Shown one piece after another: positions 8,061 through 63,999 of a DNA stretch of 64,000 nt; the first letter of the stretch is position 1, and each line of letters starts with the position of its first letter. The notes under the pieces were generated by a model that was not told the origin of the DNA, searched no databases, and saw only the letters and a list, made by a program, of their open reading frames with translations. The position numbers and the translations under genes are program-made. This DNA comes from a virus (Duplodnaviria; Caudoviricetes), in the IMG/VR virus record IMGVR_UViG_3300024259_001623. The stretch is one strand, 5' to 3'.

Positions 8061-11000
8061 TTACGATGTTTTTCCTAAATCTATTTCAGCCAAGAATTGA
8101 GCCATCTTATTACCTGTAGCATCTCCAACTGCTTTTGCTATAGCTTCTGCCGAACTCAGCCCTGTAAAATCTATCGACACATTCAATCTAGAAGATACAC
8201 CGCTCCCAGGCCCTGCACTTTCTACAGCACTCTGCAAATTATCTTCCATAGCAGTATTAGGAACTCCCCTACCAGAACCAGTCACTCCAGACGTGCCTCG
8301 ACCTCCTACTGCTCCTGGCCCTTTGCCTACTTTGCCTCGGCGTCCAGTTCCTACAGTAGGAGCAGTTGTCGCACTAGTCGCTCCAGGCTGATTAGCAAGA
8401 CCAGCAGGGAATCTTCCCCTTATGGCATCAGTTATTCTAGTAGTTGATTTTTCATAAGTTTTTATTATTCCTTCTCTTAGTTCTCTTAGCATCTTATTAT
8501 TTTCGTCCATTTTAATTCCGACATCAGGAGCATATCCCTGCCCCCTTGTCCTGCCACCGTCAATAGATAAACCTCCGCCCTGAGTCGCTCTAAATCTTTC
8601 GGCATTTGTGAAACCTATTGGTCCCTCGCCTCTTCTAGCAACCGCACCACTCAATGCCGATCTATATTGCTGCATATATTGTAAACTTTGACGCATATTT
8701 TGATCAGAAGATATTCTCAATTTTGCTATACGACCAGAACCTATTGTTTGAGCGTTAATAGCGCTTACCCAACCATCTCTCATAGATTTAGCAACAGACG
8801 CTTCTTGTTGTAACATCTGAACGCTCTTGTTCTGCAATGCTAATCTTCTCTTTCTTTGTGTAATATTTTCTTCTTCTAGATTGTATCTTGATAGATGATC
8901 CTTTAGCTCTCTTTGAACCAATTCTCTCTGTTGTCTTATCATTTCTAACTGTTTCTGTCTCATTGCAACGCTAGCTCCAAGACCAGTTACCATATTATCC
9001 ATCAAACTAACCATATTAGAAGCATGTTGAGCTTCAGCGGCCAATACTTGTTCTCTTTCTCTATATTTTAAACCAACAGATAAAATAACTTCTTGTCTAT
9101 CTTTTTCCAATTTAGCAAGTTCTGCTGTAACATTCTTTTCTTTAATCTTTAACTGCAAATAAAGTTCGCCAGTTTTCTCTTCTTCTTTTAAAGTAGATAA
9201 CGCTTCTCTAGTAGCCTCTAAATCTTCTTGAGCAGCAGTAGATTGATTTTGTATCAACTTTATTCTATTCTGATAGGCTTTCTCGAACTGTGCCTCCCCC
9301 TTACCTGTTAAAGCAAAATATTGAGCAGCGGAATCAAGATCAGTTCTTCCAGCAGCCGCTAAATTCTTCCTTACACTCAACAATCTTCCAGTCTGATCAG
9401 ACGTAAAAGTGATAAGTTTAGCTCCTTGCATCTGAGTCTGAGCAATTTTTGCTTGTATATTATTAACCTTAACCATAGCTTGCGCGTATTCGATTCCATC
9501 TTTAGGTAATTGTCTGGCAAGGGCTTCAGCTTCTTTCAATTCGTGCTTTTGGACCTTAATCAAATGAACCAAATGAGCTTCCGTTTTCGCTCTATCCCTC
9601 GTAACTGTTCCTGACATCAATAAATTAAGATCTCTTCTGGCTTCTAATTCCGATCTGACAGACTGTGCAGCCGCACTCGACGCAGCAGATATTTTCTCTG
9701 CAAATACTAATTTCATTTTGTCAATATCTAATGCTTGTTTTGCCTGGTTTGCTGATTCGGCCTGTAATGCAGATATTTGAGCGTTTACGTCCTGCAAGCT
9801 TTTATCCGACATCAATTGAGCCATTTTTGTATCTTTTTCCTCTTTTGATATTGTTCCATTTTCGACAGCCATATCAATTTGCTTCTTCATAGCAGAAACT
9901 AAATTCTTACGCAAAGCGACTTGAATTTTCAAACTAGCTTGAGTCATAGTCCTAGCCTTAGCTATTCTTGTTTGAGAAACTGCTTGAGCCTCATAAGCTT
10001 TTGCAACATTGCCAGTTATAGCAGCAGCTTCAAATTCTGCCTGAGCAGCAGATGCCGCAGCAGATGCAGATTTTACATAGGCTTCTTTTAATTCTTTTTG
10101 TTGTTTTGCTATAATAGCTATTTGGGCTTCAAATTCTTGAGCTTCTTTCAATTTATCATTAACACCAGCATAAGCCTTTTGTCTCTCATCTACTATGGCA
10201 TTAATACTTCTTCCTAAAGTATCAGCCTTTGCTTGAACCATGTTTATTTCTTCTTCTGTGGCTTTTTCTTCTTTCTTTTTAGCGACTAAATCTGTAAGGA
10301 CTTGATGTTGTTCTTTCATATTCGCTAAATTCTTTACCGACAATTTACCAGTCAAATCTTTTTCTACTCTTGCCCTTATATCTGTAGAACTTGCGGCTCC
10401 TCCTCTAGCGCTAATCAATGCAGCCGCCGATTTACCTCCGATGCCGGTAACAGCAGCAGAACGAATCTCATTTAATCTCTTTCTTTTAGACTTTTCTCCA
10501 GAAGCCTTCGCTTGAGCTTCTTCCATTTCTCCAGAAATCTTGGCTTTAACTTTTGCAATTCTTGCCGCTTCAGCTTTAGCCTCTCTATCTTGTCTTCTTT
10601 TGCCTAATTGCATAATTCCGCCGACGAGAGTTGTATTAAACGCAGCCTTTGCACCTTTAGCTATCCATCCTCCTAATTTTTTAGCACCGCCGATCACGGC
10701 CTTGCCTATTTTAGTACTGGCAAAAGCACCACCTATCTTTTTAGCTATGGTAAAAGGCAATTTCTGTATTTTTAACCATGTTTTCCCAAGCCACTTAACT
10801 GCTCCCCAAACTTTACCGACAAGACCTTTTATACCATCCCAAATTATACTTCCAAGCTCTTTAATGCCTGACCAGAATGTACCGCCAGCATCTTTTATAT
10901 CCTTCCAAGCCTTTTTAGTTGAAGTTAAGACTTTCTTCCCTATTTCGGATTTACCCAATATAGTTTCAACACTAGCAGAAATATTTTTAAATTCCATAGC

Positions 11001-12677
11001 GAAACCAACAAGACCACCAACAATTCCACCTATAGCGGTTCCTATAATAGGAACCGCAGAACCGACAGCCATCCCTGCTAATGCCATACCCCCAACTGAT
11101 GCAGCAGATTTACCTAACCCTGCTGCCGCTCCTTTTGTCTCAGCACTCTCAGCCGCTCTTATATCTCCACGCTCTCTTAATGTTGCTGCCTGGCTTTCAT
11201 AATTACTTTGCATACCTCCGAAAATCAATTCTCCACCAAGAGCAGCAATACCAGCGCCAGATGCTAATTTAGCAGCTTTACCTAAATTGGCTCCTGTCTT
11301 AGCTAACCCGCCAGCCCTACTTAATAATCCGCCAGCTTTAGATCCGCCTTTACCCAAAAGTTTTCCAATAAAACCACCAGCACGTTTGCCAAGCAATTTT
11401 TGTGCAATTTTACCGCCTTTACCTTTAGTTACTCGACCCAAAACCTTGCCAGCTATATCTCCAATAATACCACCAGCAGCACCTCCAGCCATAACAACAT
11501 GCAACGGTTTTGATTTCGTTCCATCTGGTCTACCGCCAGATAATACTCCAGATAAAAAGCCTTTTACGCCTCCCCCGCCTCTTGCCCCTGCAATTCCGCT
11601 TTTAACTCTGTGCATTAATCCACCAGCCATTGTTTTTGCACCACCAATAGCAGATGCCCCAGCACCAACAACCTTCATAGCCGCTCCAACCGCAACCAAA
11701 GGAGCAACCCATTTAGCAATAAAAGATGCTATCTTCTTGACAGTATCCATATTATTCTTCAAAAAATTAGATAGCTTTTCTACTAAAGGCATAACCTCTT
11801 TACCTATAGAGATAGCAATCTCTTGCCAGAACAACTTCATTTTACCCATAGTCTTAGTATATTCATCAGCTATATTTTTTCTATTTTGATCACCTTCAGT
11901 CGCCTGTTTATTTTGCGAAACATAATCCTGCAAAGACTTATACTGGCTCTCACTAATCTTTCCAGTTGCAACCATTATGCTCAGTTGGGCCTTTAAACGC
12001 TCCTTATCGGCCCCTGCGAGATCTTCTGCTGCTCTTTGCAGTTCAGGATACTGAGAAACTAAATTGCCTACATTAGCCACCATCTGCTGCATTGCTGCCA
12101 CATTAGAACCAGTTGTTGCCCTAATATTCTTTAATAAATTATTAGCACCTTTTAAAGTAGCTAATGGGAAACCTTTTTCATAAGTTTGAAATAACTTAGT
12201 TGTCTCCATACGAGTCAAATTCAACTGCTTCGACATGTGCTTCAGTTGACCTTCTACTTCCCTGATTCCAACTCCATATTTTGCAAATTGTGCTGATAAT
12301 TGTAATAATTCTTTATTATAATCAACAACTATTGTCATAGAACCTTTCAAGTCTAATGTGGCACCAGCCAAGCTGGCCACAGATCTAGCGACTCCCATAA
12401 TAGTTGTAGTAGCCTTATTGAACTGACTAAAAGATCTAGATACAGTTAATACTGCTCCTTCTACTCCCCCTAAAGCCTTTTTCATGTCTTTAAACTGATC
12501 TGTAGCAGATTTGGTCTTTATACTATTCAGAGAATTCGTGATCTTTTTAGTTGATTTCTCTGTTTTATCAAAAGTCCCCATCAACTTCTTCATTTGATTT
12601 TCTAATGAAGAAACATCAGATTCACCTACTACTTTCAGTACATGTTCATGAACAGTTTGATTTGTTTCTTTTGCCAT
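8061..12677 (-). CDS. Tail tape measure protein
   Basis: 1538 aa, Ala/Lys/Gly-rich and helical, with hydrophobic Gly-rich segments; follows the tail tube and chaperones. Confidence 0.9.
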   Translation of the reverse strand: MAKETNQTVHEHVLKVVGESDVSSLENQMKKLMGTFDKTEKSTKKITNSLNSIKTKSATDQFKDMKKALGGVEGAVLTVSRSFSQFNKATTTIMGVARSVASLAGATLDLKGSMTIVVDYNKELLQLSAQFAKYGVGIREVEGQLKHMSKQLNLTRMETTKLFQTYEKGFPLATLKGANNLLKNIRATTGSNVAAMQQMVANVGNLVSQYPELQRAAEDLAGADKERLKAQLSIMVATGKISESQYKSLQDYVSQNKQATEGDQNRKNIADEYTKTMGKMKLFWQEIAISIGKEVMPLVEKLSNFLKNNMDTVKKIASFIAKWVAPLVAVGAAMKVVGAGASAIGGAKTMAGGLMHRVKSGIAGARGGGGVKGFLSGVLSGGRPDGTKSKPLHVVMAGGAAGGIIGDIAGKVLGRVTKGKGGKIAQKLLGKRAGGFIGKLLGKGGSKAGGLLSRAGGLAKTGANLGKAAKLASGAGIAALGGELIFGGMQSNYESQAATLRERGDIRAAESAETKGAAAGLGKSAASVGGMALAGMAVGSAVPIIGTAIGGIVGGLVGFAMEFKNISASVETILGKSEIGKKVLTSTKKAWKDIKDAGGTFWSGIKELGSIIWDGIKGLVGKVWGAVKWLGKTWLKIQKLPFTIAKKIGGAFASTKIGKAVIGGAKKLGGWIAKGAKAAFNTTLVGGIMQLGKRRQDREAKAEAARIAKVKAKISGEMEEAQAKASGEKSKRKRLNEIRSAAVTGIGGKSAAALISARGGAASSTDIRARVEKDLTGKLSVKNLANMKEQHQVLTDLVAKKKEEKATEEEINMVQAKADTLGRSINAIVDERQKAYAGVNDKLKEAQEFEAQIAIIAKQQKELKEAYVKSASAAASAAQAEFEAAAITGNVAKAYEAQAVSQTRIAKARTMTQASLKIQVALRKNLVSAMKKQIDMAVENGTISKEEKDTKMAQLMSDKSLQDVNAQISALQAESANQAKQALDIDKMKLVFAEKISAASSAAAQSVRSELEARRDLNLLMSGTVTRDRAKTEAHLVHLIKVQKHELKEAEALARQLPKDGIEYAQAMVKVNNIQAKIAQTQMQGAKLITFTSDQTGRLLSVRKNLAAAGRTDLDSAAQYFALTGKGEAQFEKAYQNRIKLIQNQSTAAQEDLEATREALSTLKEEEKTGELYLQLKIKEKNVTAELAKLEKDRQEVILSVGLKYREREQVLAAEAQHASNMVSLMDNMVTGLGASVAMRQKQLEMIRQQRELVQRELKDHLSRYNLEEENITQRKRRLALQNKSVQMLQQEASVAKSMRDGWVSAINAQTIGSGRIAKLRISSDQNMRQSLQYMQQYRSALSGAVARRGEGPIGFTNAERFRATQGGGLSIDGGRTRGQGYAPDVGIKMDENNKMLRELREGIIKTYEKSTTRITDAIRGRFPAGLANQPGATSATTAPTVGTGRRGKVGKGPGAVGGRGTSGVTGSGRGVPNTAMEDNLQSAVESAGPGSGVSSRLNVSIDFTGLSSAEAIAKAVGDATGNKMAQFLAEIDLGKTS

Positions 12678-29087: not shown

Positions 29088-30125
29088 ATGATATATATCG
29101 AAATATTTTTGACGATGTTACAATGCCACGAAAAACTTTATAAACATTTTCACAAAAACAACAAAGGAATAAAAACATACAACGAGAATATAATATATCT
29201 AAGTGACTATAGTAGGCAAAACAAAATGAATGATAAAAAAAGAAATTACCAAAAATGGACAAATAATGAAACTAACTTTTTAATAAAAAATTACCCATCT
29301 AAAGGAAAAGAATTCTGTCTACAACACCTAAAAACTACAGAAACAAGAATGATGTTAAAGATTCAAAATCTTGGGCTAAAACTGAACAAAAAAACTTATA
29401 AAAAAGCAATACAAAAAAGATACGATAAACCAATGGACAACTATAACGTAAATCGTGATATTTTCAAAAATATAAACTTACCACAAGTAGCATACGTATT
29501 AGGTTTTTTATGGGCAGATGGGAACATATACCACAAAAACTATCATTATAAAATATCTACATCAATAAAAAAAATAGACGGTATTATATTAAAAAATATA
29601 TTTTTCAAAACTGGTAAATGGTCGATAAGTGAAAGAAAAAAATACACTACTGACACAAGAAACAATAGCGCTCAACTAAAAATAAGCACAAATAACAAAC
29701 ATTTATATAAACTATTAGAAAAATACGGATATAGAAATAAACAAAATGCCAAGAATATTACTAAAAAAATCCCAAAAACGTTATTGCATTATTGGTGGAG
29801 AGGATATTTCGATGGCGATGGATGTGTTTTTTATTCACAAAAAACAGGCTATAAAACATCTGTATCCATAAGTGGACCTTATGATACAAATTGGGAATTC
29901 GCAGAAAGCCTATTTGATAATCTAGGAATAAAATACTCGATAAATAGAAGACACAGTAAAAATGGATCTTCTTCGAACATAATAGCTTACCAAAGAGAAC
30001 ATGTAAATATATTTGGAGAGTATTTATATCGAGGAGAACTATTTGGACTTATAAGAAAATATAAACGTTTTCAAAATATAAAGAATTTTAAAAAGAAAAA
30101 TAAAAATTATTCTGTTTCGTCATAA
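29088..30125 (+). CDS. Free-standing LAGLIDADG homing endonuclease, antisense to the operon
   Basis: AYVLGFLWADG and YWWRGYFDGDG motifs; N-terminal KWTNNETNFL segment; very A-rich. Confidence 0.85.
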   Translation: MIYIEIFLTMLQCHEKLYKHFHKNNKGIKTYNENIIYLSDYSRQNKMNDKKRNYQKWTNNETNFLIKNYPSKGKEFCLQHLKTTETRMMLKIQNLGLKLNKKTYKKAIQKRYDKPMDNYNVNRDIFKNINLPQVAYVLGFLWADGNIYHKNYHYKISTSIKKIDGIILKNIFFKTGKWSISERKKYTTDTRNNSAQLKISTNNKHLYKLLEKYGYRNKQNAKNITKKIPKTLLHYWWRGYFDGDGCVFYSQKTGYKTSVSISGPYDTNWEFAESLFDNLGIKYSINRRHSKNGSSSNIIAYQREHVNIFGEYLYRGELFGLIRKYKRFQNIKNFKKKNKNYSVSS

Positions 30126-30709
30126 TAACTTCCTTTCTTTCCCCTATAATCATGAGCTTTATTAGCAGGATGGTTATAACACCATACATCATCATCATAA
30201 TATTTATTTATAGCATTCATTAAAAATATAATTTTTGATAAAGAAACAGGACTATAAGCATGCGCATCTATCCCGACATTGACCATATTCTTCTGAACCT
30301 TCCACAATCCATGAACATGACCACAAATGTTCCAACAATCTTTCTTCCCCTTTGTAGGATAATGATTCAAAAACATCTGCATTTTTTTGTTTTTCTGAGG
30401 CTTGATGTTCAACATTACATCTTCGCTAACAGACTCAAAATATTTCCTGTATTCATCATCAGGAATTTTGCCTTCGTGATTCCCCTTGATAAGATGCTTT
30501 TTACCATTCATATTAGAGACAACATCAAAAAACTTTTTGTCTGTTAATACATCTCCCAAAAAGAAAACTGTATCATCTTCCTTCACAAGACTATTATGTT
30601 TTTCAAGAATATCATTATTGAAATTCTCTACTGAGTCATAAGGTCTAAATAAAATATCAAATCTGTCATCTCCAAAATGATGATCAGAACAGAACCATAC
30701 ATTAGCCAC
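30107..30709 (-). CDS. Calcineurin-like metallophosphoesterase
   Basis: SDHHFG, FLGD, KGNHE, HYP and GHVH motifs. Confidence 0.9.
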   Translation of the reverse strand: MANVWFCSDHHFGDDRFDILFRPYDSVENFNNDILEKHNSLVKEDDTVFFLGDVLTDKKFFDVVSNMNGKKHLIKGNHEGKIPDDEYRKYFESVSEDVMLNIKPQKNKKMQMFLNHYPTKGKKDCWNICGHVHGLWKVQKNMVNVGIDAHAYSPVSLSKIIFLMNAINKYYDDDVWCYNHPANKAHDYRGKKGSYYDETE

Positions 30710-31478
30710 TATTCTTCTCCTTGTAACTCTTCATGAAGATATCTCCGTCTACAACCCATTTATCTTCTTTTTTCTCTTTATCTCTTAAAACGAAATCTCC
30801 ACATTTTCCCTTCATTCCATTAACTTCAAAGCTCCCTTCTTCAACAATCTCGACAGCCTCTACCTCTGAATACTTAGGCTTCCAAATCGTATAATCTCCC
30901 TTTACTCCAATCTTTTCGTATTTAGTTTCAACCCTCTTAGCCTTTTGAGGCCATGCTTCATCCATAACACCAATACAAATCAGATCATTCTCGTCAGCTT
31001 CCTGGTCCCCTTCCATTGTCTCTACATTGCCTTCGCTATTAACTAAACCCTGTTCTTTGGCCTTATCAAATGGTAATGTCTTCATAGTGGCAACTTTGTA
31101 ATAAGTTCCCCATAAATCTTCATCCGATAATACATCTGGCAGTTTCGACGCTTCTTTTCCTATCATCTCTTGATACTCCTTCTTGTCTTCCCTCGACAAA
31201 CAATATGTTGATAAAATCCACGTTAATAACTCTGTAGCTCGGCGAACCGCATAAAATTCTGTCGGCTCATGAACTCCAATTCTATCACCATCATTTGTCA
31301 CTACGTCCCAAAAACCATCTTCAGTTCTCTTTAAGTGAAAAAGATTTTTAGGCAATTTATGTTCTTTTCTTATAGATGGCAAAATCTTACAAGCGAATTG
31401 AGGGGTAAAATGTTCAGAGATATACTGTAGCAATGCACTGGATACAATATTCTTTTTAGCTACCTTGTACCAGTTCAT
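30702..31478 (-). CDS. MNWYK-tagged hypothetical protein with a C-terminal PGDYG-like domain
   Basis: Probable start MNWYKVAKK at 31478; C-terminal ETMEG...GDFVLRD...WVVDGDIFMKSY. Confidence 0.6.
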   Translation of the reverse strand: MNWYKVAKKNIVSSALLQYISEHFTPQFACKILPSIRKEHKLPKNLFHLKRTEDGFWDVVTNDGDRIGVHEPTEFYAVRRATELLTWILSTYCLSREDKKEYQEMIGKEASKLPDVLSDEDLWGTYYKVATMKTLPFDKAKEQGLVNSEGNVETMEGDQEADENDLICIGVMDEAWPQKAKRVETKYEKIGVKGDYTIWKPKYSEVEAVEIVEEGSFEVNGMKGKCGDFVLRDKEKKEDKWVVDGDIFMKSYKEKNSG

Positions 31479-32029
31479 TTTTGAGTACCCCAAAATTTCA
31501 TCTCCTGAGCATAGCTAGGTTCTGTGTATTTGGGGTATCTATTCCCGTAGATATTTTGTCTCCAATCCGGAGATGTTTTATAACGCTTAGAATAATTAAC
31601 GTATGGAATATTGGAAGCGACATTATCTTCAAGGTCAACATCATCTAATTTGTCACTTAAAATAGGCCAAAATATAGATGTAGGAGTCTCATTATCTATA
31701 AAATCACTCATAGTCTCAACAGCGATTTTCTTTATTTTATTATATACCTTCTTGGCCTTAGCAAAATCAGATTTATCGTATGTCCAATATCTATTCCACC
31801 CCAAAGACCCCAAAAATGCATGATTAATAACTACAGCAACAGCAATTTTCTCTTTTGTTTCAGATATGGATATTCTTATTGTATAAGCATCCATGACATA
31901 TCTCTGCAAATCAAACATGGTCATCCACTCTCCATCCTGATTTGTAGCAGCGGCGTCATCTTCACAATCGAATCTGCCAGATGCGGTCTTTACTACTCTC
32001 TTTTTAATATTATCTTTATACCAATTCAT
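31475..32029 (-). CDS. MNWYK-tagged hypothetical protein
   Basis: Starts MNWYKDNIKKRVVKTAS. Confidence 0.7.
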   Translation of the reverse strand: MNWYKDNIKKRVVKTASGRFDCEDDAAATNQDGEWMTMFDLQRYVMDAYTIRISISETKEKIAVAVVINHAFLGSLGWNRYWTYDKSDFAKAKKVYNKIKKIAVETMSDFIDNETPTSIFWPILSDKLDDVDLEDNVASNIPYVNYSKRYKTSPDWRQNIYGNRYPKYTEPSYAQEMKFWGTQK

Positions 32030-56281: not shown

Positions 56282-58372
56282 CTATTTTCCTTCAATTCTC
56301 TCTAATATCTTTTTACATCTCTTAGAAGGATCTTTAGTTAAAAAAGCTGCCTTTTTCCCAAAGTAGTAAGGAACAACAAAATCGAATTGTTCTTTTGTTA
56401 TATCAATAATTTCTTTGTTATATTCTGCCCACCAATGTGAAACACCATCTTCCAAAGTATATCTCTTTATTTTTATATCATATTTCTCTTTCAATATATG
56501 ATATAAAGATTCAGTAGCTATATAACAAGCACCATGAATAGGAGTATCACCTTGATATTCTTTCTTTATTAAATCAAAACTTAATACTTTCTTTATCTGA
56601 TCACAAATATCTATAATTTCTTTTTTTTCACAAAAATTAATCTTTGTTAAATTATAAACCCATTTCTTTTTTCCACAATCCCATATAACATACATTCTTC
56701 TCGAATTATTCCAATCTACGATAGTCATCCCCTCCGGCCTGTTTTTATTAGTCTGTCTTTGAGATTGCTTATTACAATACTTCTGTTTTTTATGATCATA
56801 ATAAAAATAACTTGGTGGATATTCTTTCTCTAAAGAAAAATCTAAAACACTATAAATATTCCCCTCAGAAAAAATATTGTCAGACCAACTAATAATATTA
56901 TCATAACCAGATTTTATAGACCACTCCCTGAAATATTTAAATAATTTACTAGAGCCACCTTGAACCGTTACACCATCCTTAAAAACCAACCTGGTCAAAA
57001 TACAAGCCTTCTTATCTCCACCACGCTCATGATGCTTGCCTGCCGTCATAACCCCTACAGTATCTCCATTATATACTAAATTAAAATATTTAATTGTTCC
57101 TCTTGGAGTTCCCTGTATATGATATTTCTCAATAAAATCATCAGAGTTACTATGAGATATTATACATTTACGAGCAGCAATCTTTTTCTTATTTAAACCA
57201 AAAACAGATTTTAAATATGTCTTAACCTGGTTCTCTCTTTGTAAATAAGTATGTTCAAAAACATGAACCAATCTATAACCCTTTTCATTACATAATCTAG
57301 TCTTTTCTATGTGCGTTTTCTTAGCTTTTTCACGAGAGAGGTTAGCCTCAGAATGCCAAAAACTACCATTAAATTCTACAGCAACTTTTTTATCCTTATC
57401 TACTATATCTAATTCTAGCGGAGTAATTATAGAACGATCATTAAACGAGACATTAGATCCTTCCTCTTTTAACCAGTCGTACAATTCTTTCTGTTTTTGT
57501 TGTGTAGGAAAAGTATATGTAGAATAATATCTATCCCTAAATTCATCCTTTAATAAAGCGGCAGTTGCACTTTGATAATTTAAATCAAAGTCTTCACAAA
57601 CTTTTTTTAAAGAATTTTTCAACAATTTATCCCAAAAATCTTGTCCTCTTAAAGTATTAACTAAATCATAATGACCTGCCTCATTTATGCCTATAGTGAT
57701 ATTAAAATTATGTTGAGTTTTATTTTTTATATCTTTATTTTGTTGAGGATTTTTACAACCATATTTTTGCATATTAGTATTTTCTATTTTTTTTCGAATC
57801 TCTTTATTTTTGAGAGGATTATCTACTCCATATCTCTCTACATTTGTCTGTTTCATTTTTTCTTTTATATCTTCACTTTTTAAAGGATGATCTACACCAT
57901 ATTTTTTAATATTAGTTTTTTTAATTTTATCTTTAATCTCTTCTGACTGAAAAGGATTTTCAACACCGTACCTTTTCAAATTTGTTTTTTTAATTTTATC
58001 CTTATTTTCTTTAGATAATCTAACATTAGAAATTTTCTTAGCTATTTCTTTATTTTGACTTGCATATTCAGATCCGTACTTCTCTTTAATCTTTTTTTTA
58101 GCTTTTTTTCTAATTTCAGGATCAGAAAATGGAGAACATTGTTTCTTCATTTCTTTTATTTTACACTCTTTATGACAAGCTGATCCTGATTTTATAAAAA
58201 ACCCTTTCCTAACTTTATGCTGTTTTCCACAAAATCTACAAATAGCAATAACAAATTTACTTGATGAATTACCTAAAGTGTCAGGATCATATCCAAACTC
58301 TTTTATAGTTTCTTCTTTTAAAATCTTTGATTTAAAATTAAATATCTTACGTTCTTTCATTTTTATCCTCAT
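56282..58372 (-). CDS. Hef-like homing endonuclease: KYGV(D/E)NP repeats, PD-(D/E)xK nuclease, GNAT-like domain and an extra C-terminal domain
   Basis: KTNLKRYGVENP-type repeats; LELDIVDKDKKVAVEFNGSFWH; AARKC...YHIQG...GGSSKLF...IISWSD...GNIY; start may be 58360. Confidence 0.75.
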   Translation of the reverse strand: MRIKMKERKIFNFKSKILKEETIKEFGYDPDTLGNSSSKFVIAICRFCGKQHKVRKGFFIKSGSACHKECKIKEMKKQCSPFSDPEIRKKAKKKIKEKYGSEYASQNKEIAKKISNVRLSKENKDKIKKTNLKRYGVENPFQSEEIKDKIKKTNIKKYGVDHPLKSEDIKEKMKQTNVERYGVDNPLKNKEIRKKIENTNMQKYGCKNPQQNKDIKNKTQHNFNITIGINEAGHYDLVNTLRGQDFWDKLLKNSLKKVCEDFDLNYQSATAALLKDEFRDRYYSTYTFPTQQKQKELYDWLKEEGSNVSFNDRSIITPLELDIVDKDKKVAVEFNGSFWHSEANLSREKAKKTHIEKTRLCNEKGYRLVHVFEHTYLQRENQVKTYLKSVFGLNKKKIAARKCIISHSNSDDFIEKYHIQGTPRGTIKYFNLVYNGDTVGVMTAGKHHERGGDKKACILTRLVFKDGVTVQGGSSKLFKYFREWSIKSGYDNIISWSDNIFSEGNIYSVLDFSLEKEYPPSYFYYDHKKQKYCNKQSQRQTNKNRPEGMTIVDWNNSRRMYVIWDCGKKKWVYNLTKINFCEKKEIIDICDQIKKVLSFDLIKKEYQGDTPIHGACYIATESLYHILKEKYDIKIKRYTLEDGVSHWWAEYNKEIIDITKEQFDFVVPYYFGKKAAFLTKDPSKRCKKILERIEGK

Positions 58373-58506: not shown

Positions 58507-59379
58507 TTAGGAAGTTGCAGAACTAACGTTGATTCTAGAAACGGCGTAATCGTTGATAACAACGATTCCGACCTCTTCGTAGATAACCCAGCCAAGACGC
58601 AATTTCTTAGGATCATCAGCAGGAAGAACGGTAATATCCTGTCTAATTGGGAACGCGCCAACGGTGTCAGGACTCGCAACAACAAGAACGACGGTGTTAG
58701 GCATTCTCGAAGAAACGTGAATGTCGGCGGTATACAAGTGACCGTAAAGACCAGTTGTAATAATTTCTCTCTGAGTTGCCTCATCATAGAAAGTTTTGCC
58801 GAAGTTTCTTACGCTTGCAAACTGGGTTGCATGCATAACGATCTTAGTAGCGACAAGATCATGCTCTTCGATGAAACGGAAAGCGGTATTCAACGATGCA
58901 ACCGAAAGGGTTCCAAAGTTGTCAACAACATTACCGGAAGTAGTAGCAGCAGCCAACAGTGCGTTGAAAATGTTGGTGTCCTCTTCCTTCTGGATAGCTT
59001 CCTTGGCCTTGATTTGGGCGCGGTCTACGATGTAGAATCTACGAGCCTTAATCTCGGACAATCTTACGGTAGGATGGGCAGCGATTTCGAACGTAGGAAC
59101 CAAAATCTCTTCACCTTCCTGAATCTGATCTGGAACTGCGCCTCTACGAGAGATAACGTGAGCAATGCTCGCAACATCTCTTTCGTAACGTGCCAAAGCA
59201 CCTTGAGGAAGTTCGTCAACCATTAAAAGCTTACGACCTACAGCTTGATATTCCAACGAACGTCTAATTGGTTCTACCATAGCCTGTGCCAACGCTACTC
59301 TACCCTCATCAGTCTCAAGGGCCTGGGCGATGACCTCTTCTTTCTGTCTATCAGACAAACTATTTTTTGCAAAAGCCAT
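58507..59379 (-). CDS. Major capsid protein (HK97 fold)
   Basis: 290 aa; EPIRRSLEYQAVGRKLLMVDELP; PTFEIAAHPTV; AIQKEEDTNIFNAL; GWVIYEEVGIVVIN; AAGGAG RBS and own terminator. Confidence 0.9.
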   Translation of the reverse strand: MAFAKNSLSDRQKEEVIAQALETDEGRVALAQAMVEPIRRSLEYQAVGRKLLMVDELPQGALARYERDVASIAHVISRRGAVPDQIQEGEEILVPTFEIAAHPTVRLSEIKARRFYIVDRAQIKAKEAIQKEEDTNIFNALLAAATTSGNVVDNFGTLSVASLNTAFRFIEEHDLVATKIVMHATQFASVRNFGKTFYDEATQREIITTGLYGHLYTADIHVSSRMPNTVVLVVASPDTVGAFPIRQDITVLPADDPKKLRLGWVIYEEVGIVVINDYAVSRINVSSATS

Positions 59380-59459: not shown

Positions 59460-60005
59460 TTAGATCAATAGAATGAATTCTACGAATTCACCTAAAGTAG
59501 TAGAACCATCAACAGTGATACCGGGAACGCCAGAAGGATAGTCAGCAACCGCAGCCGCTACTCTACCGATCAACTGGTCAGTACCTGGAGTACCATTGGT
59601 AGTCAACAAAGCATTGGCCGAACTATAAAGTGCAGCACCTGGATTCGCTGTAGAAACAAGATCTTCAAACTGATCGGTTGCGAAACGTCCGCCGCCATTA
59701 TAAACAGTCATCTTACCAGAAGCCAAAGTCTCGTTGAAGAAGTCAGATACTCTATTAGAGGTCTGTCTTGTAGCACCAGCAGAGTTAACGATCAAAGATG
59801 CAGAGTAAGGCGTACCAGCAGTATCATTACTCTGAGTGTCACCTGCGATGCCGATAGCATCGTTATTGTTACTGGCGTCAGGTCTTGCGTATCCAGCAGT
59901 TGTCAATCTGACAATCTGGCCTTCAATAAGATCTGGAGTACCAGCCCAATCAGGATCAACAGGATACATATCCGCAACAACATGTTGAATTTCGATTAAA
60001 GCCAT
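59460..60005 (-). CDS. Capsid decoration/cement protein
   Basis: 181 aa directly upstream of the MCP; GQIVRL...AIGIAGD...GKMTVY...GAALYSSANALLT...IGRV. Confidence 0.65.
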   Translation of the reverse strand: MALIEIQHVVADMYPVDPDWAGTPDLIEGQIVRLTTAGYARPDASNNNDAIGIAGDTQSNDTAGTPYSASLIVNSAGATRQTSNRVSDFFNETLASGKMTVYNGGGRFATDQFEDLVSTANPGAALYSSANALLTTNGTPGTDQLIGRVAAAVADYPSGVPGITVDGSTTLGEFVEFILLI

Positions 60006-60033: not shown

Positions 60034-63000
60034 TTATATACGATTATAAACTTTTTTATAATCTGAGTCTATGTCGTGAGCAGCTTGATTCTGTTGGTCG
60101 AGACTGAATAAACTTTTCAACTGAGTTGCAAGTTCTCCAGAAGCAGTCCTTTGATTGCTTTTTTCTCCAATAACAACGGGATTACTCTCTAGCCCGCCAG
60201 CTTCTCCGTCGAGTCCTTTTTTAGAAAAGATGCCTTTTTCAAAATCTGCAAGTTGCTCCATTTGGTATCTTGCCAACTCAGCGATTTTCTCTGCCAAGCC
60301 TTCTGGTTTGATACGGTTATCTTGCAACATACGACCGGCAATTCTTGTAGCTTCAGCATAAACTTTTCTATTATCGGACTCCGCTGTAGTAGAAGCGATG
60401 CCTATATCTTTATTTTCTTTTTCAGATTCCTGTCCTTCGCCCTTTGGTAACGTATCGCCACCGGCTGGGAAAGAAGGATGATCTTTAGGGGAATCTGGTT
60501 TACTCTTAAAAGTCTCTTTCTCTTTACCAATAAATCCGCCGTCACTCTTAACATCCTTATCCTTTACTTCATCAGCATCGAACTTATCTTCGTCGCCCAT
60601 AGTCTTATTGTCTTGTATGGGTTGGATATCAGGATCTTTAGAATCAGGTTCTTTAGGAGCTAACTTTTTCTCATTAGCAGACTTCAAAATGTTATCAGCT
60701 AATGCAGAAATTCTTTCTCTAGTAGATGCAGCCTTAGAAGTACCGGCTCCTTGTTCGCCGCCAGTATTTCTTACATCTCCGCCCTCTAACTCTTCTTCGC
60801 CCATTGGAGAACTTCCTGCTGGAACTTTAACCTCTTCAGTATCAATCTTTGTCTCTTCCGAGATAAGAGCTTGATCACCAGTATGAGGAACAGAAGGCTT
60901 TCCTTCTGTCAAAGCATTCTCATTATCCATTGGAGTTCCGTCTTTATATTTTCCGATATCAGGAGAATCTTGAGCATTCTGCTGCTGCAAAGATTTCTCT
61001 CCAGCTTCGGCTTTCTTATTTACAACAGATAAGACGTTAGACAAGTCTAATCCGATATGTCCAGTTCTACCGATATAACCATGTTTCATGGTGTTGGCCT
61101 CTTTCTCAATATTTTCTTGATTGTTTGCCATTGTCATTTCAGAATCTTCCATATCCATTTCTTCTTCGTCGCCCTCTTTTTCTACCATCTCGTCTGTCTC
61201 TTCAGGATTCATAACTCCTGCGTTATCATTCATATACTCATCTTCTTCTGGGACTCCTTCTTTATTTCCCATTTTTTCTTCAATTACTTCTTCTACTATG
61301 TCTTCAACCCTATCCATAATCTCTTCAACTATTTCTGCTTCAGGACTTTCTACAACATCTTCTACATCTTCTACGTCTTCTACAACATCCTCTACGTCTT
61401 CTTCAATACCTTCTACGCCTTCTCCAATATCTTCTACAACATCTACTACTTCTTCTTCGCCTTCCATATATTGCATATCAGAAGATTCTTCTCCTTCCAT
61501 ATCTTTAACTTCTTCAGTTCCTAAATTCTCTCCCAAAGCCTTATCAACAACTTCATCTACTACTTCTGAAGCATCTTCAGGAGTATCGATGTCTACTTCG
61601 ACTTCGGTAACTTCTTCTGGAACTTCTTCTACGACTTCGCCTTCACCTTGAGCCTCATCAATAGCTTGCTCAAGTTGCTCTAAAACTTCCGAAGGTAATT
61701 CAATAGTTATAGTAGCATCTGTATCTTCGCCAAAAGGCTCGATATCTACAATGCTGATGCCGTCAGGACCGCCAGGACCGTCTGGTCCTTCTGGACCGTC
61801 ATCTTCGACATCCAACTCGTCAACAATGACATCATCCAACTGTGCATATTTTGTTTTCAATGCATCGCAGATGACGCATGACTGTTTGTATTCAAATCCC
61901 AATCTGATATAATCTTCGATACATTCGCTAGCAGCTTCTTTCTCTACCCAAATTCCAGCGACCTTAACGGCCAAATTGCTAGAGTAAACGCCAGCATTCT
62001 TCAAAGACTTGCAAACGCAATCTGCCAAAGCTTTCCCTTCGCAAGGACCGCTTAAAGCAACTGCATTTTCGCCATATCTATTAGCCAACTTTTGCATGCA
62101 ACTTTCAACTGGGAACTGACTACCATCAACAGAAGCAAACTTAGTCTTATATTCATCAACTACGGATGTCTTTGTGCTTGCAGTCTTAATCTTATCTATA
62201 AGTCCCTTTCCGCTCATAGCCAAGATAACGTTACCCTTTTCTTTCATATCTAATGTATCAAAGCCCTTTTCGTCCAAACCAACTGTAGTTAAGGCTTTAA
62301 TGAATCTTGCTTTACTTCTTGAGCAAGAATCGCATTCCATATCAGTATTAGTTTTCCAACTCCATTGAGCGTATATATTCTTAGGATTCTTTGTACTAGC
62401 AGCATACTTAACTTCATACGCAATTCCAGAATCCATACACATAAACTTATTTGTATCTAATTGCATAACGTTTGTAGAACCAGTTACAGGGCTGACTTCG
62501 CCTAACTTAACTCCAGCTTCAGAAGCGATCTTCAAAGCTTCAGGAGTCAATTTTGTAGTCATAGCGAACTTACCAACTTTCATAACGGATGCTACTTTTT
62601 CCATTTTACTATCAGACTTGGCTGCTGCTGCCATCTCGCCCTCGCCTTCTGGAAGTGCAAAGCCTTCGCCTTCCAATTCTGCTCCAGCGGCTTCAGTCTC
62701 ATCTTCGCCAGCGAACTCGTCCTGGTCAATACCATCGTCCTTGTCGCCAGAAACGCCTTGCCATTTAGTTACTTTAATATCGATTTCATAAGAAAACTCC
62801 GATCCGCAGTTATTGCATTTTCCTTGTCCTTTGATGATATCAACATCTTCGCTTGTGCAAACTGGGCAAGTGGAGCCAGGAGGCTTAGGCTGTAAATCTT
62901 CGCCATCATCTCCCATTCCTTCTGCCATATCAGTCTCTTCAAATGTCTCTAATGGAGCTTCGCCCATATTTCCAGGAGCGGCTGGCATTGTAGCCCCAGC

Positions 63001-63999
63001 ACCGGCTCCTGCTCCCCCATCAGCGCCGCCAGCGGCTTCGCCGCCCATTCCTGGACCGCCTTGACCACCGAACATTTGAGCAGTCTTTACTAAATCATCT
63101 CTAGAAGCCATTCTCATATCTTTTTCATCATCATCAAGTTCGAATGGATCATAGAGCAATTCTTCGTGCTTTTTACCCTTTTCTATCTCTGCCAACTCTT
63201 CTGGGGTAGGCTCAATATATTCCATTTCCTCAGTCGCAGGCGGATCAAGCTTCTCTTTTCCAAAACTCTTTGGGTCATACAAAGCTGTCTGTGCAACTTT
63301 AACAGCAGCTTTTTCTTTTGCAGTCAAAGTCTTAACGTCCTTGACTGTAGCAACTACAAAACCTTTTTCCTCATCAATATCAATACTTAACAATGCAGTT
63401 TCGATCCCTGCATCATCAATTTCCTTATCAGCAAGTTTCTTTAAGGCTGCGATAAATTTTGCTTGATCTTCTTTACTAGCAGAAATTTCTTTCAAATCGG
63501 CATAAACTTGATAAACGCCGTCTTCTGGTCTATCCAACTCAGTAATAGCATTTTCGTATTCCGCAGTCTTATCCAAAACATCAACTGTATTCTTAGAAGC
63601 CATTTTTTCTTTTGCCATATTCTCGGCAATCTTCATACCCTTCTTGCTTCCAGCGATAACCTTAATAGCTTCTAAAACATCATCAGCCTTGTATCCTTGA
63701 ATATGAGCAGAAGCACATACAAGTAAGGAATCGACAGCAGATGGAGTTCTAACGCCGGAAGAAGCGATCTTAGAGAAGTAATCATACTTTTCTCTTTCAG
63801 ACTGTCTCTCGCCAGCCTTATGAGGAAGTGCATTGATCAATGTGACATAAGCAGCCTTATCTAAGGTCTTTACATTTTGATTAATGTAACTAGAAGCCTT
63901 TAAAACATCAACAGGAGTCTTACCGTAGTAAGCAATAGTATCAGCGATGGTTGCCATAGCAGACTTTACGATATCCTTAGATTCGCTAGAAGCCCATCT
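60034..63999 (-). CDS. Very large acidic scaffold/prohead-core-like protein, 5' end outside the window
   Basis: Frame stays open upstream of the track start (RWASSESKDIVKSA-MATI) to the edge; D/E-rich stretches, CPVC...CNNC zinc ribbon, many K-x-A motifs; precedes decoration and MCP genes. Confidence 0.7.
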   Translation of the reverse strand, partial: RWASSESKDIVKSAMATIADTIAYYGKTPVDVLKASSYINQNVKTLDKAAYVTLINALPHKAGERQSEREKYDYFSKIASSGVRTPSAVDSLLVCASAHIQGYKADDVLEAIKVIAGSKKGMKIAENMAKEKMASKNTVDVLDKTAEYENAITELDRPEDGVYQVYADLKEISASKEDQAKFIAALKKLADKEIDDAGIETALLSIDIDEEKGFVVATVKDVKTLTAKEKAAVKVAQTALYDPKSFGKEKLDPPATEEMEYIEPTPEELAEIEKGKKHEELLYDPFELDDDEKDMRMASRDDLVKTAQMFGGQGGPGMGGEAAGGADGGAGAGAGATMPAAPGNMGEAPLETFEETDMAEGMGDDGEDLQPKPPGSTCPVCTSEDVDIIKGQGKCNNCGSEFSYEIDIKVTKWQGVSGDKDDGIDQDEFAGEDETEAAGAELEGEGFALPEGEGEMAAAAKSDSKMEKVASVMKVGKFAMTTKLTPEALKIASEAGVKLGEVSPVTGSTNVMQLDTNKFMCMDSGIAYEVKYAASTKNPKNIYAQWSWKTNTDMECDSCSRSKARFIKALTTVGLDEKGFDTLDMKEKGNVILAMSGKGLIDKIKTASTKTSVVDEYKTKFASVDGSQFPVESCMQKLANRYGENAVALSGPCEGKALADCVCKSLKNAGVYSSNLAVKVAGIWVEKEAASECIEDYIRLGFEYKQSCVICDALKTKYAQLDDVIVDELDVEDDGPEGPDGPGGPDGISIVDIEPFGEDTDATITIELPSEVLEQLEQAIDEAQGEGEVVEEVPEEVTEVEVDIDTPEDASEVVDEVVDKALGENLGTEEVKDMEGEESSDMQYMEGEEEVVDVVEDIGEGVEGIEEDVEDVVEDVEDVEDVVESPEAEIVEEIMDRVEDIVEEVIEEKMGNKEGVPEEDEYMNDNAGVMNPEETDEMVEKEGDEEEMDMEDSEMTMANNQENIEKEANTMKHGYIGRTGHIGLDLSNVLSVVNKKAEAGEKSLQQQNAQDSPDIGKYKDGTPMDNENALTEGKPSVPHTGDQALISEETKIDTEEVKVPAGSSPMGEEELEGGDVRNTGGEQGAGTSKAASTRERISALADNILKSANEKKLAPKEPDSKDPDIQPIQDNKTMGDEDKFDADEVKDKDVKSDGGFIGKEKETFKSKPDSPKDHPSFPAGGDTLPKGEGQESEKENKDIGIASTTAESDNRKVYAEATRIAGRMLQDNRIKPEGLAEKIAELARYQMEQLADFEKGIFSKKGLDGEAGGLESNPVVIGEKSNQRTASGELATQLKSLFSLDQQNQAAHDIDSDYKKVYNRI

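What the first reader, a model, noticed from the sequence alone, without database searches (positions are those of the whole stretch)
60034..63999. Giant scaffold-like polyprotein studded with K-x-A sites
Seen (manual count): more than 20 K-x-A, including 13 K-x-A-[S/Q/N] (KIAS x2, KMAS, KVAQ, KTAQ, KVAS, KTAS, KFAS, KLAN, KYAQ, KEAN, KAAS, KSAN), often bounding acidic blocks and Cys-rich mini-domains. Inference: maturation-protease sites that cut the core into pieces, using the same code as the tagged cargo. The protease may be the missing N-terminal part or the next gene.
Basis: partly seen in the sequence, partly recalled or inferred. Interest (0 to 1): 0.7.

Follow-up and report, generated by a model that had tools for sequence, protein, structure and literature searches.

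The report
Megaphage protease-scaffold polyprotein, K-x-A sites
This open reading frame is the rear two thirds of a 1,936-residue head-assembly protein of an uncultured giant phage, a capsid-maturation protease fused to a huge scaffold-like body, and the many Lys-x-Ala motifs in it are probably where that protease cuts, though no cut has been measured.

Summary
Shuffles that preserve local composition expect about 12 and 1.7. The reverse pattern A-x-K is not enriched, and none of the other 52 ORFs in the window is enriched for K-x-A.

The ORF runs off the window. The full gene encodes 1,936 aa and lies portal, two small genes, this gene, decoration protein, major capsid protein (55% identical to Bacillus phage G gp27). 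The missing N-terminus folds like T4 gp21 and the herpesvirus assemblins, with an invariant His98 and Ser149.

K-x-A is the most over-represented one-gap residue pair in 61 homologues and in 97 further giant relatives. About 20 positions are conserved although x and the flanks vary. The sites flank the protease domain, follow short N-terminal leaders and sit in a flexible inter-subdomain loop.

I also found a conserved internal Shine-Dalgarno plus ATG at Met458, in 7 of 7 homologues with DNA. This suggests a nested scaffold-only product, as in herpesvirus UL26.5 or lambda Nu3.

Cleavage itself is inferred, and several sites lie inside predicted helices. This scan has already noted the same K-x-A code in at least seven other phage-G-like genomes. 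I found no paper on it.

The parts
60034..63999 (-). C-terminal 1,321 codons plus stop of a 1,936-codon prohead protease-scaffold polyprotein gene. The first 615 codons lie beyond the window end.
   Evidence: Translation is open to the window edge. It is 100% identical to P0002 (1,936 aa) over its whole length. L002 and L003 match the window with 0 mismatches over 13,967 nt and carry the whole gene.
63325..63999 (-). Moderately conserved K-x-A-rich module (P0002 residues 616-840). It contains KSAM627 (63955-63966), KIAS692 (63760-63771), KMAS747 (63595-63606) and KLAD803 (63427-63438).
   Evidence: K and A at these positions are kept together in 83%, 76%, 39% and 69% of 54 homologues, while flank identity is 0.25-0.42 and x varies.
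63076..63087 (-). KTAQ (residues 920-923), the site before the Gly-rich/acidic/zinc-ribbon segment.
   Evidence: K-x-A is kept in 85% of homologues. Q923 is invariant. x varies among E, T, Q and K.
62806..62868 (-). CxxC...CxxC zinc-ribbon mini-domain (C993, C996, C1010, C1013).
   Evidence: C993 and C996 are invariant and C1010 and C1013 nearly invariant (>=90%). C..C is the most enriched two-gap pair.
61810..62577 (-). Conserved Cys-rich two-lobed domain (residues 1090-1345) with no detectable known fold.
   Evidence: AlphaFold model with pLDDT 88.7. Best Foldseek E-value is 0.035 and best VIA Z is 4.4. The profile finds nothing significant in the PDB.
62176..62187 (-). KTAS (residues 1220-1223) in the flexible loop between the two lobes of the Cys-rich domain.
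   Evidence: K-x-A is kept in 96% of homologues and the next residue is Ser in 42 of 52. The site lies in the only block of the model with mean pLDDT near 61.
61954..61965 (-). KVAG (residues 1294-1297), the most conserved K-x-A, inside a predicted helix.
   Evidence: K is kept in 98% and A in 100% of homologues. The site lies in helix 200-211 of the domain model. It may be structural rather than a cut site.
61120..61809 (-). Hyperacidic, poorly conserved block (residues 1346-1575; summed net charge of the six full 40-residue bins 1361-1600 is -83). It is bracketed by KYAQ (61840-61851) and KEAN (61093-61104).
   Evidence: Composition and conservation by 40-residue bins; coordinates.
61006..61017 (-). 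KKAE (residues 1610-1613), a conserved site after the acidic block.
   Evidence: K-x-A is kept in 74% of homologues.
60037..60447 (-). Conserved C-terminal module (residues 1800-1936), a candidate capsid-binding end of the scaffold.
   Evidence: Alignment A4 has several nearly invariant columns. Assigning it scaffold function is inference from position only.
59460..60005 (-). 181-aa gene in the position of the phage G gp26 capsid decoration protein. It has no K-x-A.
   Evidence: Synteny with phage G gp26/gp27 and with all relatives examined. K-x-A count is 0.
58507..59379 (-). Major capsid protein, 290 aa, without a delta domain. It has one K-x-A.
   Evidence: phrog_2522 at 1.8e-63. 55% identical to phage G gp27.

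Best explanation
The ORF is the C-terminal two thirds of a single 1,936-residue head-assembly polyprotein of an uncultured phage-G-like megaphage.

Its N-terminal 250 residues, just beyond the window, are a serine protease of the assemblin / T4 gp21 / HK97 fold. The remaining roughly 1,650 residues are a modular, partly disordered and very acidic scaffold/core body.

Inferred mechanism: the protein co-assembles with the capsid protein inside the procapsid. A shorter product lacking the protease is probably also made from a conserved internal start at Met458 and supplies most of the scaffold. The protease then cuts after Ala in (hydrophobic)-x-Lys-x-Ala followed by Ser, Gln or Gly. This frees the protease itself and chops the body into pieces that leave the capsid or stay as internal proteins.

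Shown: the identity and position of the gene, the protease fold with conserved His and Ser, the enrichment and positional conservation of K-x-A, and the conserved internal ribosome-binding site.

Inferred: that K-x-A is cut, that the scissile bond follows Ala, that the internal start is used, and that the body acts as a scaffold.
For: Gene order is portal (with intein), 147 aa, 214 aa, this gene, 181 aa, MCP, and it is conserved in every relative examined. The MCP is 55% identical to phage G gp27.

The N-terminus hits phrog_18299, head maturation protease. 19 of 45 members weakly hit PF14550 Peptidase_S78_2. The model (pLDDT 81.6) aligns to T4 gp21 with Z 10.0 (rmsd 2.9 A over 131 residues) and to VZV and PRV proteases with Z 9.3-9.0. 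H98 and S149 are invariant, also in phage G gp19 and mycobacteriophage Tonenili gp249. Inteins are inserted at two separate points within 3 residues of S149 in five homologues.

K-x-A is the top one-gap pair in this protein (36 vs 15) and in 61 homologues (2,133 vs 876). 60 of 61 homologues have z>3 with 30-residue block shuffles. It is also the top pair among the 55 more distant of 97 giants found independently through the protease profile (1,338 vs 786). A-x-K stays at 1.0.

20 aligned positions keep K and A in at least 50% of sequences while x and the flanks vary.

The sites sit where processing sites are expected. K30-x-A-S (93%) lies in the disordered leader before the protease core. K257-V-A-S (78%) and K286 (67%) lie just after the core. 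K471 (91%) lies 8-16 residues after the internal Met. KTAS1220 (96%) lies in a low-pLDDT loop. Most family members start M-x-x-x-K-x-A.

Phage G gp19 is itself K-x-A enriched (8 vs 2.4), and gp20 and gp21 begin with a short leader ending in K-x-A.

The format P3-x-P1 cut P1' with P1 Ala and P1' Ser matches what I recall of the herpesvirus assemblin sites (V/L/I)-x-A|S (general knowledge, not tested here).

Internal start: GGAG lies 5-12 nt upstream of the aligned ATG in 7 of 7 homologues, against a 2-6% base rate per codon. In two of these genes it is the only in-frame Met with such a site.
Against: There is no direct evidence of cleavage for this phage or any relative. The phage G multi-omics paper lists gp19 as a head maturation protease but reports no cleavage sites (PMC12484599).

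About seven of the ten K-x-A in the Cys-rich domain lie in predicted helices or strands, including the most conserved one (K1294), so part of the signal may be structural.

No conserved K-x-A lies close to the C-terminus, where herpesviruses have their maturation site.

K-x-A does not rank among the most enriched one-gap pairs in the mycobacteriophage homologue Tonenili gp249.

The C-terminal module shows no detectable similarity to phage G gp21 or to the Tonenili protein, so scaffold function rests on gene position alone.
Confidence: 0.65

Rival explanations
1. The body is not mainly a scaffold. It is a polyprotein of internal head (cargo or ejection) proteins that is carried into the procapsid by the protease and released by K-x-A cuts. 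The zinc-ribbon, Cys-rich and hyperacidic modules would be the mature products kept in the head.
For: The body contains well-folded, conserved modules (pLDDT 88.7) with no known fold. They are separated by variable linkers that carry K-x-A. Giant phages such as SPN3US pack tens of MDa of processed proteins in the head (PMC10052503 and PMC7411985, abstracts). Phage G keeps the protease as a 300-aa stand-alone gene, so the body is not obligatorily attached.
Against: The MCP has no delta domain, and no other scaffold candidate lies between portal and MCP. A conserved internal start that makes the body alone in excess is the hallmark of scaffold genes. The two roles do not exclude each other.
Confidence: 0.2
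2. K-x-A is a recognition or docking motif that is bound but not cut, for example an address that holds proteins to the inner capsid surface, the portal or the protease.
For: The motif sits at residues 5-7 of most family members and in N-terminal tags of unrelated proteins, where removing a few residues would seem to achieve little. Several copies lie in helices.
Against: A three-residue motif with a free middle position is short for a binding epitope but typical of protease subsites. In T4, as I recall (general knowledge), the targeting tag is both address and cut site, so this rival largely merges with the main reading. The sites flank the protease domain in three distant lineages.
Confidence: 0.08
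3. The enrichment is inherited structure without any signal function: conserved helix-forming K/A patterns of an old, slowly evolving protein.
For: About 15 of the roughly 36 sites per protein are at positions shared by at least half of the family, so common descent explains much of the count. Some sites are in helices.
Against: Conservation is on K and A only, in linkers whose flanks are 25-40% identical and rich in indels. The reverse and shifted patterns are not enriched. The residue after A is biased to S (2.8x) and Q (2.3x). The lysine- and alanine-rich tape-measure-like protein of the same phage shows no K-x-A excess. About 7 sites per protein are lineage-specific.
Confidence: 0.05
4. 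The protease cuts after Glu as T4 gp21 does, at the six V-I-T-E-K-Q-L repeats (residues 478-606), and K-x-A is unrelated to it.
For: T4 gp21 is the best fold match. I-T-E fits the L/I-x-E rule I recall for T4 (general knowledge). The repeats hold invariant residues.
Against: In the repeats, T and Q are the invariant residues, while the Glu is often replaced by Gln. [LI]-x-E is only 1.2 times expectation in the family, against 2.4 for K-x-A. The repeats occur in one block only.
Confidence: 0.02

Closest known systems
Herpesvirus protease-scaffold pair UL26 / UL26.5 (assemblin; HCMV UL80a/UL80.5)
   Same: An N-terminal protease of the same fold is fused in frame to a scaffold. There is a predicted nested in-frame product lacking the protease (expression strategy described in PMC11565193). 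A predicted cut site lies just after the protease domain. Ala is the predicted P1 residue and Ser is the commonest P1' residue (the herpes sites are from general knowledge).
   Different: Lys replaces the hydrophobic residue at P3 ([VLI]-x-A is at 0.97 of expectation). There are about 20 conserved sites instead of two. No conserved site lies near the C-terminus. The body is about 1,650 residues with Zn-ribbon, Cys-rich and hyperacidic modules. The nested product would arise from an internal ribosome-binding site, not from a separate transcript. Sequence identity to the herpes proteases is only 10-15%.
Phage T4 prohead protease gp21 with core proteins and the capsid-targeting sequence
   Same: It is the best structural match (Z 10.0). 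A short P3-x-P1 code is repeated in the core proteins, so that the core is cut to pieces. The same code ends N-terminal tags of cargo proteins (T4 facts from general knowledge; tags in this window).
   Different: The code is K-x-A, not L/I-x-E. Protease and core form one polypeptide. The T4 MCP is itself processed, whereas this MCP has no propeptide and only one K-x-A.
Bacillus phage G gp19 (head maturation protease, 300 aa) and its head module
   Same: It is homologous to the protease domain (35% identity, E 6e-27), with invariant H and S-M-G. It is K-x-A enriched. It has the same decoration and MCP genes downstream.
   Different: It is a stand-alone protease. The giant body has no detectable counterpart in phage G or in any record of the 50,697-record phage collection.
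Cluster C mycobacteriophage (Bixzunavirus) 1,236-aa 'hypothetical protein', e.g. Tonenili gp249
   Same: It has the same N-terminal protease domain (31% identity) fused to a long body. The synteny is the same: fusion, about 180 aa, MCP. K-x-A is present before and after the protease core.
   Different: K-x-A does not rank among the enriched one-gap pairs over the whole protein. The body is not alignable. It is annotated as hypothetical in the records I looked at.
Lambda C/Nu3 and P2 gpO protease-scaffold genes
   Same: Protease and scaffold share one reading frame, with an internal start for the scaffold (general knowledge).
   Different: The lambda protease belongs to a different family (ClpP/S49 type, from memory), and these proteins are 5-7 times smaller.

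Membership tests
Assemblin / T4 gp21 / HK97-type prohead serine proteases (Pfam Peptidase_S78 and S78_2, S77, S21) | Herpesvirus-protease fold | tested here: met
   Model m04eae3b71342 has pLDDT 81.6. VIA-align gives Z 10.0 to T4 gp21 (5jbl) and Z 9.3-9.0 to VZV and PRV proteases. All 50 top Foldseek rows are herpesvirus proteases or gp21.
Assemblin / T4 gp21 / HK97-type prohead serine proteases (Pfam Peptidase_S78 and S78_2, S77, S21) | Conserved catalytic His and Ser | tested here: met
   H98 (N-H-Q-N) and S149 (S-M-G) are invariant in 45 family members and in phage G gp19 and Tonenili gp249. Inteins are inserted at two points beside S149. Their spatial proximity in the model was not measured.
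Assemblin / T4 gp21 / HK97-type prohead serine proteases (Pfam Peptidase_S78 and S78_2, S77, S21) | Significant sequence match to a curated family model | tested here: inconclusive
   There is no Pfam hit for P0002 itself. 19 of 45 members hit PF14550 only weakly, best 7e-4, below the curated cut-off. The PHROG head maturation protease family hits at 1e-9 to 2e-13.
Assemblin / T4 gp21 / HK97-type prohead serine proteases (Pfam Peptidase_S78 and S78_2, S77, S21) | Gene in the head module between portal and MCP | tested here: met
Assemblin / T4 gp21 / HK97-type prohead serine proteases (Pfam Peptidase_S78 and S78_2, S77, S21) | Proteolytic activity on head proteins | not testable with these tools
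   This needs biochemistry or proteomics.
Nested protease-scaffold genes (herpes UL26/UL26.5, lambda C/Nu3) | Protease and scaffold in one reading frame | tested here: met
   A single 1,936-codon ORF with the protease at the N-terminus. Scaffold function of the body is inferred from position.
Nested protease-scaffold genes (herpes UL26/UL26.5, lambda C/Nu3) | In-frame internal start that gives the scaffold alone | tested here: inconclusive
   GGAG plus ATG is conserved in 7 of 7 homologues with DNA. The Met column is at least 90% conserved in a variable linker. Use of the start was not tested.
Nested protease-scaffold genes (herpes UL26/UL26.5, lambda C/Nu3) | Release site directly after the protease domain | tested here: inconclusive
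   K257-V-A-S (78%) and K286-x-A-G (67%) are present at the right place. Cleavage is not shown.
Nested protease-scaffold genes (herpes UL26/UL26.5, lambda C/Nu3) | Maturation site close to the C-terminus that frees the scaffold from the capsid protein | tested here: not met
   The last well-conserved K-x-A is at residue 1610. K1853-I-A is kept in only 37% of homologues.
T4-type core processing with capsid-targeting sequence | Cleavage after Glu in L/I-x-E | tested here: not met
   [LI]-x-E is at 1.2 times expectation, against 2.4 for K-x-A. The Glu of the I-T-E repeats is often Gln.
T4-type core processing with capsid-targeting sequence | The same short code on N-terminal tags of unrelated cargo proteins | tested here: inconclusive
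   Five ORFs of the window start with MNWYK or a similar leader. Two have K-x-A at the tag and one has it at residue 14. The family's own N-terminus is mostly M-x-x-x-K-x-A. The genome-wide claims come from unchecked scan notes.

The most novel reading that the evidence does not exclude
K-x-A followed by S or Q is the address-and-cut code of a whole clade of phage-G-like megaphages. The giant polyprotein would then be more than a disposable scaffold. After cutting, defined products stay in the head and enter the host with the DNA: the zinc ribbon, the novel Cys-rich domain, and the roughly 230-residue hyperacidic block bracketed by two sites (a possible DNA mimic or charge buffer). The six invariant T-E-K-Q repeats would be the contacts that set the size of the very large capsid.
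Probability: 0.15. Interest if true: 0.8.

Novelty: new variant of a known kind. Interest (0 to 1): 0.55.

Why it matters
How capsids that hold 400-500 kb of DNA are built and sized is hardly known, and phage G is the only cultured member of this group.

A predicted cleavage code gives a simple rule for annotating which of the hundreds of unknown megaphage proteins are head components or packaged cargo. It is directly testable in phage G by semi-specific reanalysis of virion proteomics.

The architecture also extends the parallel between phage and herpesvirus assembly to the largest known phages: an assemblin-fold protease fused to its scaffold, a nested scaffold product, and Ala|Ser-type sites. 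It also assigns a function to a 1,236-aa 'hypothetical protein' present in more than 200 sequenced mycobacteriophages.

Tried and rejected
tblastn of the 1,321-aa part against 50,697 phage records found no match.

Pfam and PHROGs on the window part alone found nothing.

Profile searches of the protease and Cys-rich alignments against PDB sequences gave no hit for the former and only chance-level hits for the latter.

Fold searches with the Cys-rich domain model (Foldseek on the PDB, and VIA-align on 48,161 representatives) gave a best E-value of 0.035 and a best Z of 4.4, so no fold was assigned.

hhalign of the C-terminal module against phage G gp21 and Tonenili gp249 gave probability below 1%. 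The apparent resemblance of the C-terminal ends that I saw by eye is therefore not supported.

No whole genome is held for this window, so genome-wide counts of tags could not be made here.

The tape-measure-like ORF as a second K-x-A substrate is rejected: K-x-A and hydrophobic-x-K-x-A are both at expectation.

A T4-like Glu code at the I-T-E-K-Q-L repeats is rejected.

Literature searches for the tag, for a K-x-A code, and for megaphage prohead proteases found no paper that describes it. This is a limited library, so it is not proof that the motif is unpublished.

Complex prediction was not used, because an enzyme-substrate pair is a poor case for it.

Full report
WHAT IS THERE

Window 60034-63999 on the minus strand is open from the window edge to a stop at 60034-60036 and gives 1,321 residues. 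It is not a whole gene. The protein database holds a 1,936-residue protein that contains it at 100% identity (P0002). Two public contigs, L002 and L003, match the window without a single mismatch over 13,967 bases and carry the complete gene, which starts 1,844 bases beyond the window end.

The window belongs to an uncultured phage with contigs up to 434 kb. Its capsid protein (58507-59379, 290 aa, phrog_2522 at 1.8e-63) is 55% identical to gp27 of Bacillus phage G.

Gene order is portal (interrupted by an intein), 147 aa, 214 aa, the giant gene, a 181-aa gene in the place of the phage G decoration protein gp26, then the capsid protein. All relatives whose DNA I fetched keep the order portal, giant gene, capsid protein, and where the contig shows it most also have the ~180-aa gene in between.

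THE OBSERVATION

- Whole-protein shuffles expect 11.4 and 1.4.
- The protein has a hyperacidic stretch, which could distort such a test, so I also shuffled within blocks of 20, 30, 50 and 100 residues. Expectations stay at 11.9-12.4 and 1.6-1.8, with z about 4.8 and 8.5-9.4.
- A-x-K, K-A, K-x-x-A, K-x-G, K-x-S and E-x-A are all at expectation, so this is not helical periodicity or K/A richness.
- An unbiased scan of all 400 one-gap pairs puts K-x-A first in the full protein (36 vs 15).
- Of the other 52 ORFs in the window, none is enriched for K-x-A. The lysine- and alanine-rich tape-measure-like ORF is at expectation.

THE FAMILY

61 homologues of 868-2,292 residues were found.

- K-x-A is the top one-gap pair over the family (2,133 vs 876). 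60 of 61 members have z>3 under block shuffles.
- A profile of the protease domain alone finds 3,905 cluster representatives at E no higher than 1e-3. The 150 best have a median length of 1,556 residues.
- Among 97 giants new to the analysis, K-x-A is again the top pair even in the more distant half (1,338 vs 786), with A-x-K at 1.0.
- In the alignment of 54 full-length members, 20 positions keep K and A in at least half of the sequences. The middle residue varies and the flanks are only 25-40% identical.
- The residue after Ala is Ser (2.8x) or Gln (2.3x). Leu is favoured two residues before Lys (2.5x). R-x-A is mildly enriched (1.6x), [LI]-x-E hardly (1.2x), and [VLI]-x-A not at all.

THE PROTEASE

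Residues 35-253 of the full protein hit the PHROG 'head maturation protease' (1e-9 to 2e-13 in four members). A model built on 45 sequences (pLDDT 81.6, core above 90) matches T4 gp21 at Z 10.0 (rmsd 2.9 A, 131 residues) and herpesvirus proteases at Z 9.3 to 7. The 50 best Foldseek rows contain nothing else.

His98 and Ser149 are invariant, also in the two distant relatives found among isolated phages:

- Phage G gp19, a 300-aa stand-alone protease.
- The 1,236-aa 'hypothetical protein' of cluster C mycobacteriophages such as Tonenili, which has the same fusion and the same neighbours.

Five homologues carry inteins, at two different insertion points that both lie within three residues of Ser149. 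This is typical of active-site motifs.

WHERE THE SITES LIE

- K30-x-A-S (93% conserved) is in the disordered leader in front of the protease core.
- K257-V-A-S (78%) and K286-x-A-G (67%) follow the core directly.
- KTAQ920 (85%, Gln invariant) precedes the Gly-rich/acidic/zinc-ribbon segment.
- KTAS1220 (96%) is in the one low-confidence loop of the otherwise well-predicted Cys-rich domain (pLDDT 88.7).
- KYAQ1332 and KEAN1581 bracket the hyperacidic block.

Most family members begin M-x-x-x-K-x-A. Phage G gp20 and gp21 start with a ten-residue leader that ends in K-x-A, and gp19 itself has 8 K-x-A against 2.4 expected.

Against this, roughly seven of the ten sites inside the Cys-rich domain are in predicted helices or strands, including the most conserved one (K1294, 98%). 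Not every K-x-A can be an accessible cut site.

A NESTED PRODUCT

In the indel-rich linker after the protease, one Met column is at least 90% conserved (Met458). In this phage, AAGGAG lies 9 nt upstream of its ATG.

In all seven homologues for which I obtained DNA, GGAG lies 5-12 nt upstream of the aligned ATG, even where the encoded residues differ (K-E, Q-E, E-E, I-G-V). The chance of GGAG in such a window is 2-6% per codon. In two of the genes this is the only in-frame Met, of 52 and 39 respectively, that has one.

A K-x-A (K471, 91%) follows 8-16 residues later. This is the signature of an internal start that would give a roughly 1,479-residue protein without the protease. That is the arrangement known from herpesvirus UL26/UL26.5, where the short form is made in about ten-fold excess (PMC11565193), and, from general knowledge, from lambda C/Nu3. 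It lies outside the window but belongs to the same gene.

INTERPRETATION

The best reading is a protease-scaffold polyprotein that is processed by its own N-terminal domain at K-x-A.

The scissile bond most likely follows Ala. Proteases of this fold read P3 and P1 (T4 L/I-x-E, herpes V/L/I-x-A|S; general knowledge), and Ser is the preferred next residue here.

If only the dozen best-conserved sites were cut, the products would include a 32-residue propeptide and a roughly 227-residue protease. They would also include a 156-residue module carrying the six T-E-K-Q repeats and a C-terminal piece of about 320 residues. These fragment sizes are my arithmetic and are inference.

Whether the body is a true scaffold, a bundle of internal head proteins, or both cannot be decided from sequence. 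The C-terminal module has no detectable relative in phage G or the mycobacteriophages, and the Cys-rich domain has no known fold.

COMPARISON AND NOVELTY

The system works like the herpesvirus assemblin-scaffold pair and like T4 core processing. It is a member of the assemblin-fold protease superfamily by fold and catalytic residues.

It differs in four ways: the predicted code (Lys at P3), the number of sites, the size and make-up of the body, and the lack of a conserved site near the C-terminus.

I found no paper describing the motif or the fusion. The recent phage G study names gp19 a head maturation protease but gives no sites.

Within this scan the K-x-A code has already been reported for at least seven other phage-G-like genomes, and a 1,923-residue fusion for another. 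The MNWYK tag has been reported for this same genome. Those are unchecked AI notes, and my tests here were made independently of them.

Additions here, as far as two look-ups of the scan notes show:

- the block-shuffle control;
- the replication in 97 independently retrieved giants;
- the intein evidence for the active site;
- the link to the mycobacteriophage 'hypothetical protein';
- the rejection of a Glu code;
- the conserved internal start.

Noticed in passing
L002:7495-7881 (P0002 residues 478-606, just beyond the window end): There are six repeats of V-I-T-E-K-Q-L spaced 20-32 residues apart. Their T and Q are among the few invariant residues of the whole 1,936-aa family, and the Glu is often Gln in relatives. 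They are possibly repeated contacts to the capsid protein. Function is unknown.
   Followed up: partly
L002:7420-7443 (outside the window): AAGGAG lies 9 nt before an in-frame ATG (Met458) inside the giant gene. It is conserved in 7 of 7 homologues, which suggests a nested scaffold-only product.
   Followed up: yes
window 53112-54236 (+): This is one of only two large ORFs on the plus strand of the window (with 29088-30125). Gene calls on identical contigs give it OrfB_IS605 / Cas12f-like TnpB domains, so a transposon-type nuclease sits inside the phage late region.
   Followed up: no
window 56282-58372 (-): A 696-aa homing-endonuclease-like protein (phrog_3339 at 1.6e-94, DUF7487) lies directly downstream of the capsid gene. 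The portal gene upstream (L002:1523-4867) carries an intein with a DUF559/MTES_1575 nuclease.
   Followed up: no
P0003, P0009, P0030 and P0036, P0055 (homologues): Inteins are inserted in the protease domain at two different points, just after S-M-G and just before T-S-M-G. Both are within three residues of the putative catalytic Ser149.
   Followed up: partly
L006 and L007 (relatives P0049, P0010): In these contigs the giant gene translates to the database protein only with TAG read as Gln, so some members of this megaphage group use a recoded stop.
   Followed up: no
window 31475-32029, 47573-47932, 54750-56243 and 30702-31493 (-): These ORFs start with, or contain near the start, M-N-W-Y-K. 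54360-54737 starts M-K-R-I-K-T-A-Q. This is the shared N-terminal tag reported by other notes of the scan. Only some copies have K-x-A directly at the tag.
   Followed up: partly
window 8061-12677 (-): A 1,538-aa tape-measure-like protein has 9 K-x-A-[SQN] against 3.4 expected (p 0.007), but K-x-A overall is at expectation. The excess is not significant after correction for 53 ORFs.
   Followed up: yes
L004:6974-10684 (Mycobacterium phage Tonenili gp249): The 1,236-aa 'hypothetical protein' upstream of the capsid gene of cluster C mycobacteriophages carries the same protease domain. More than 200 phage records match, so it can be annotated as a capsid maturation protease fusion.
   Followed up: partly
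window 51536-52078 and 52182-53012 (-): A phage sigma-70-type factor (regions 2 and 4) and an R2K-clade ATP-grasp protein lie a few genes downstream of the head module.
   Followed up: no
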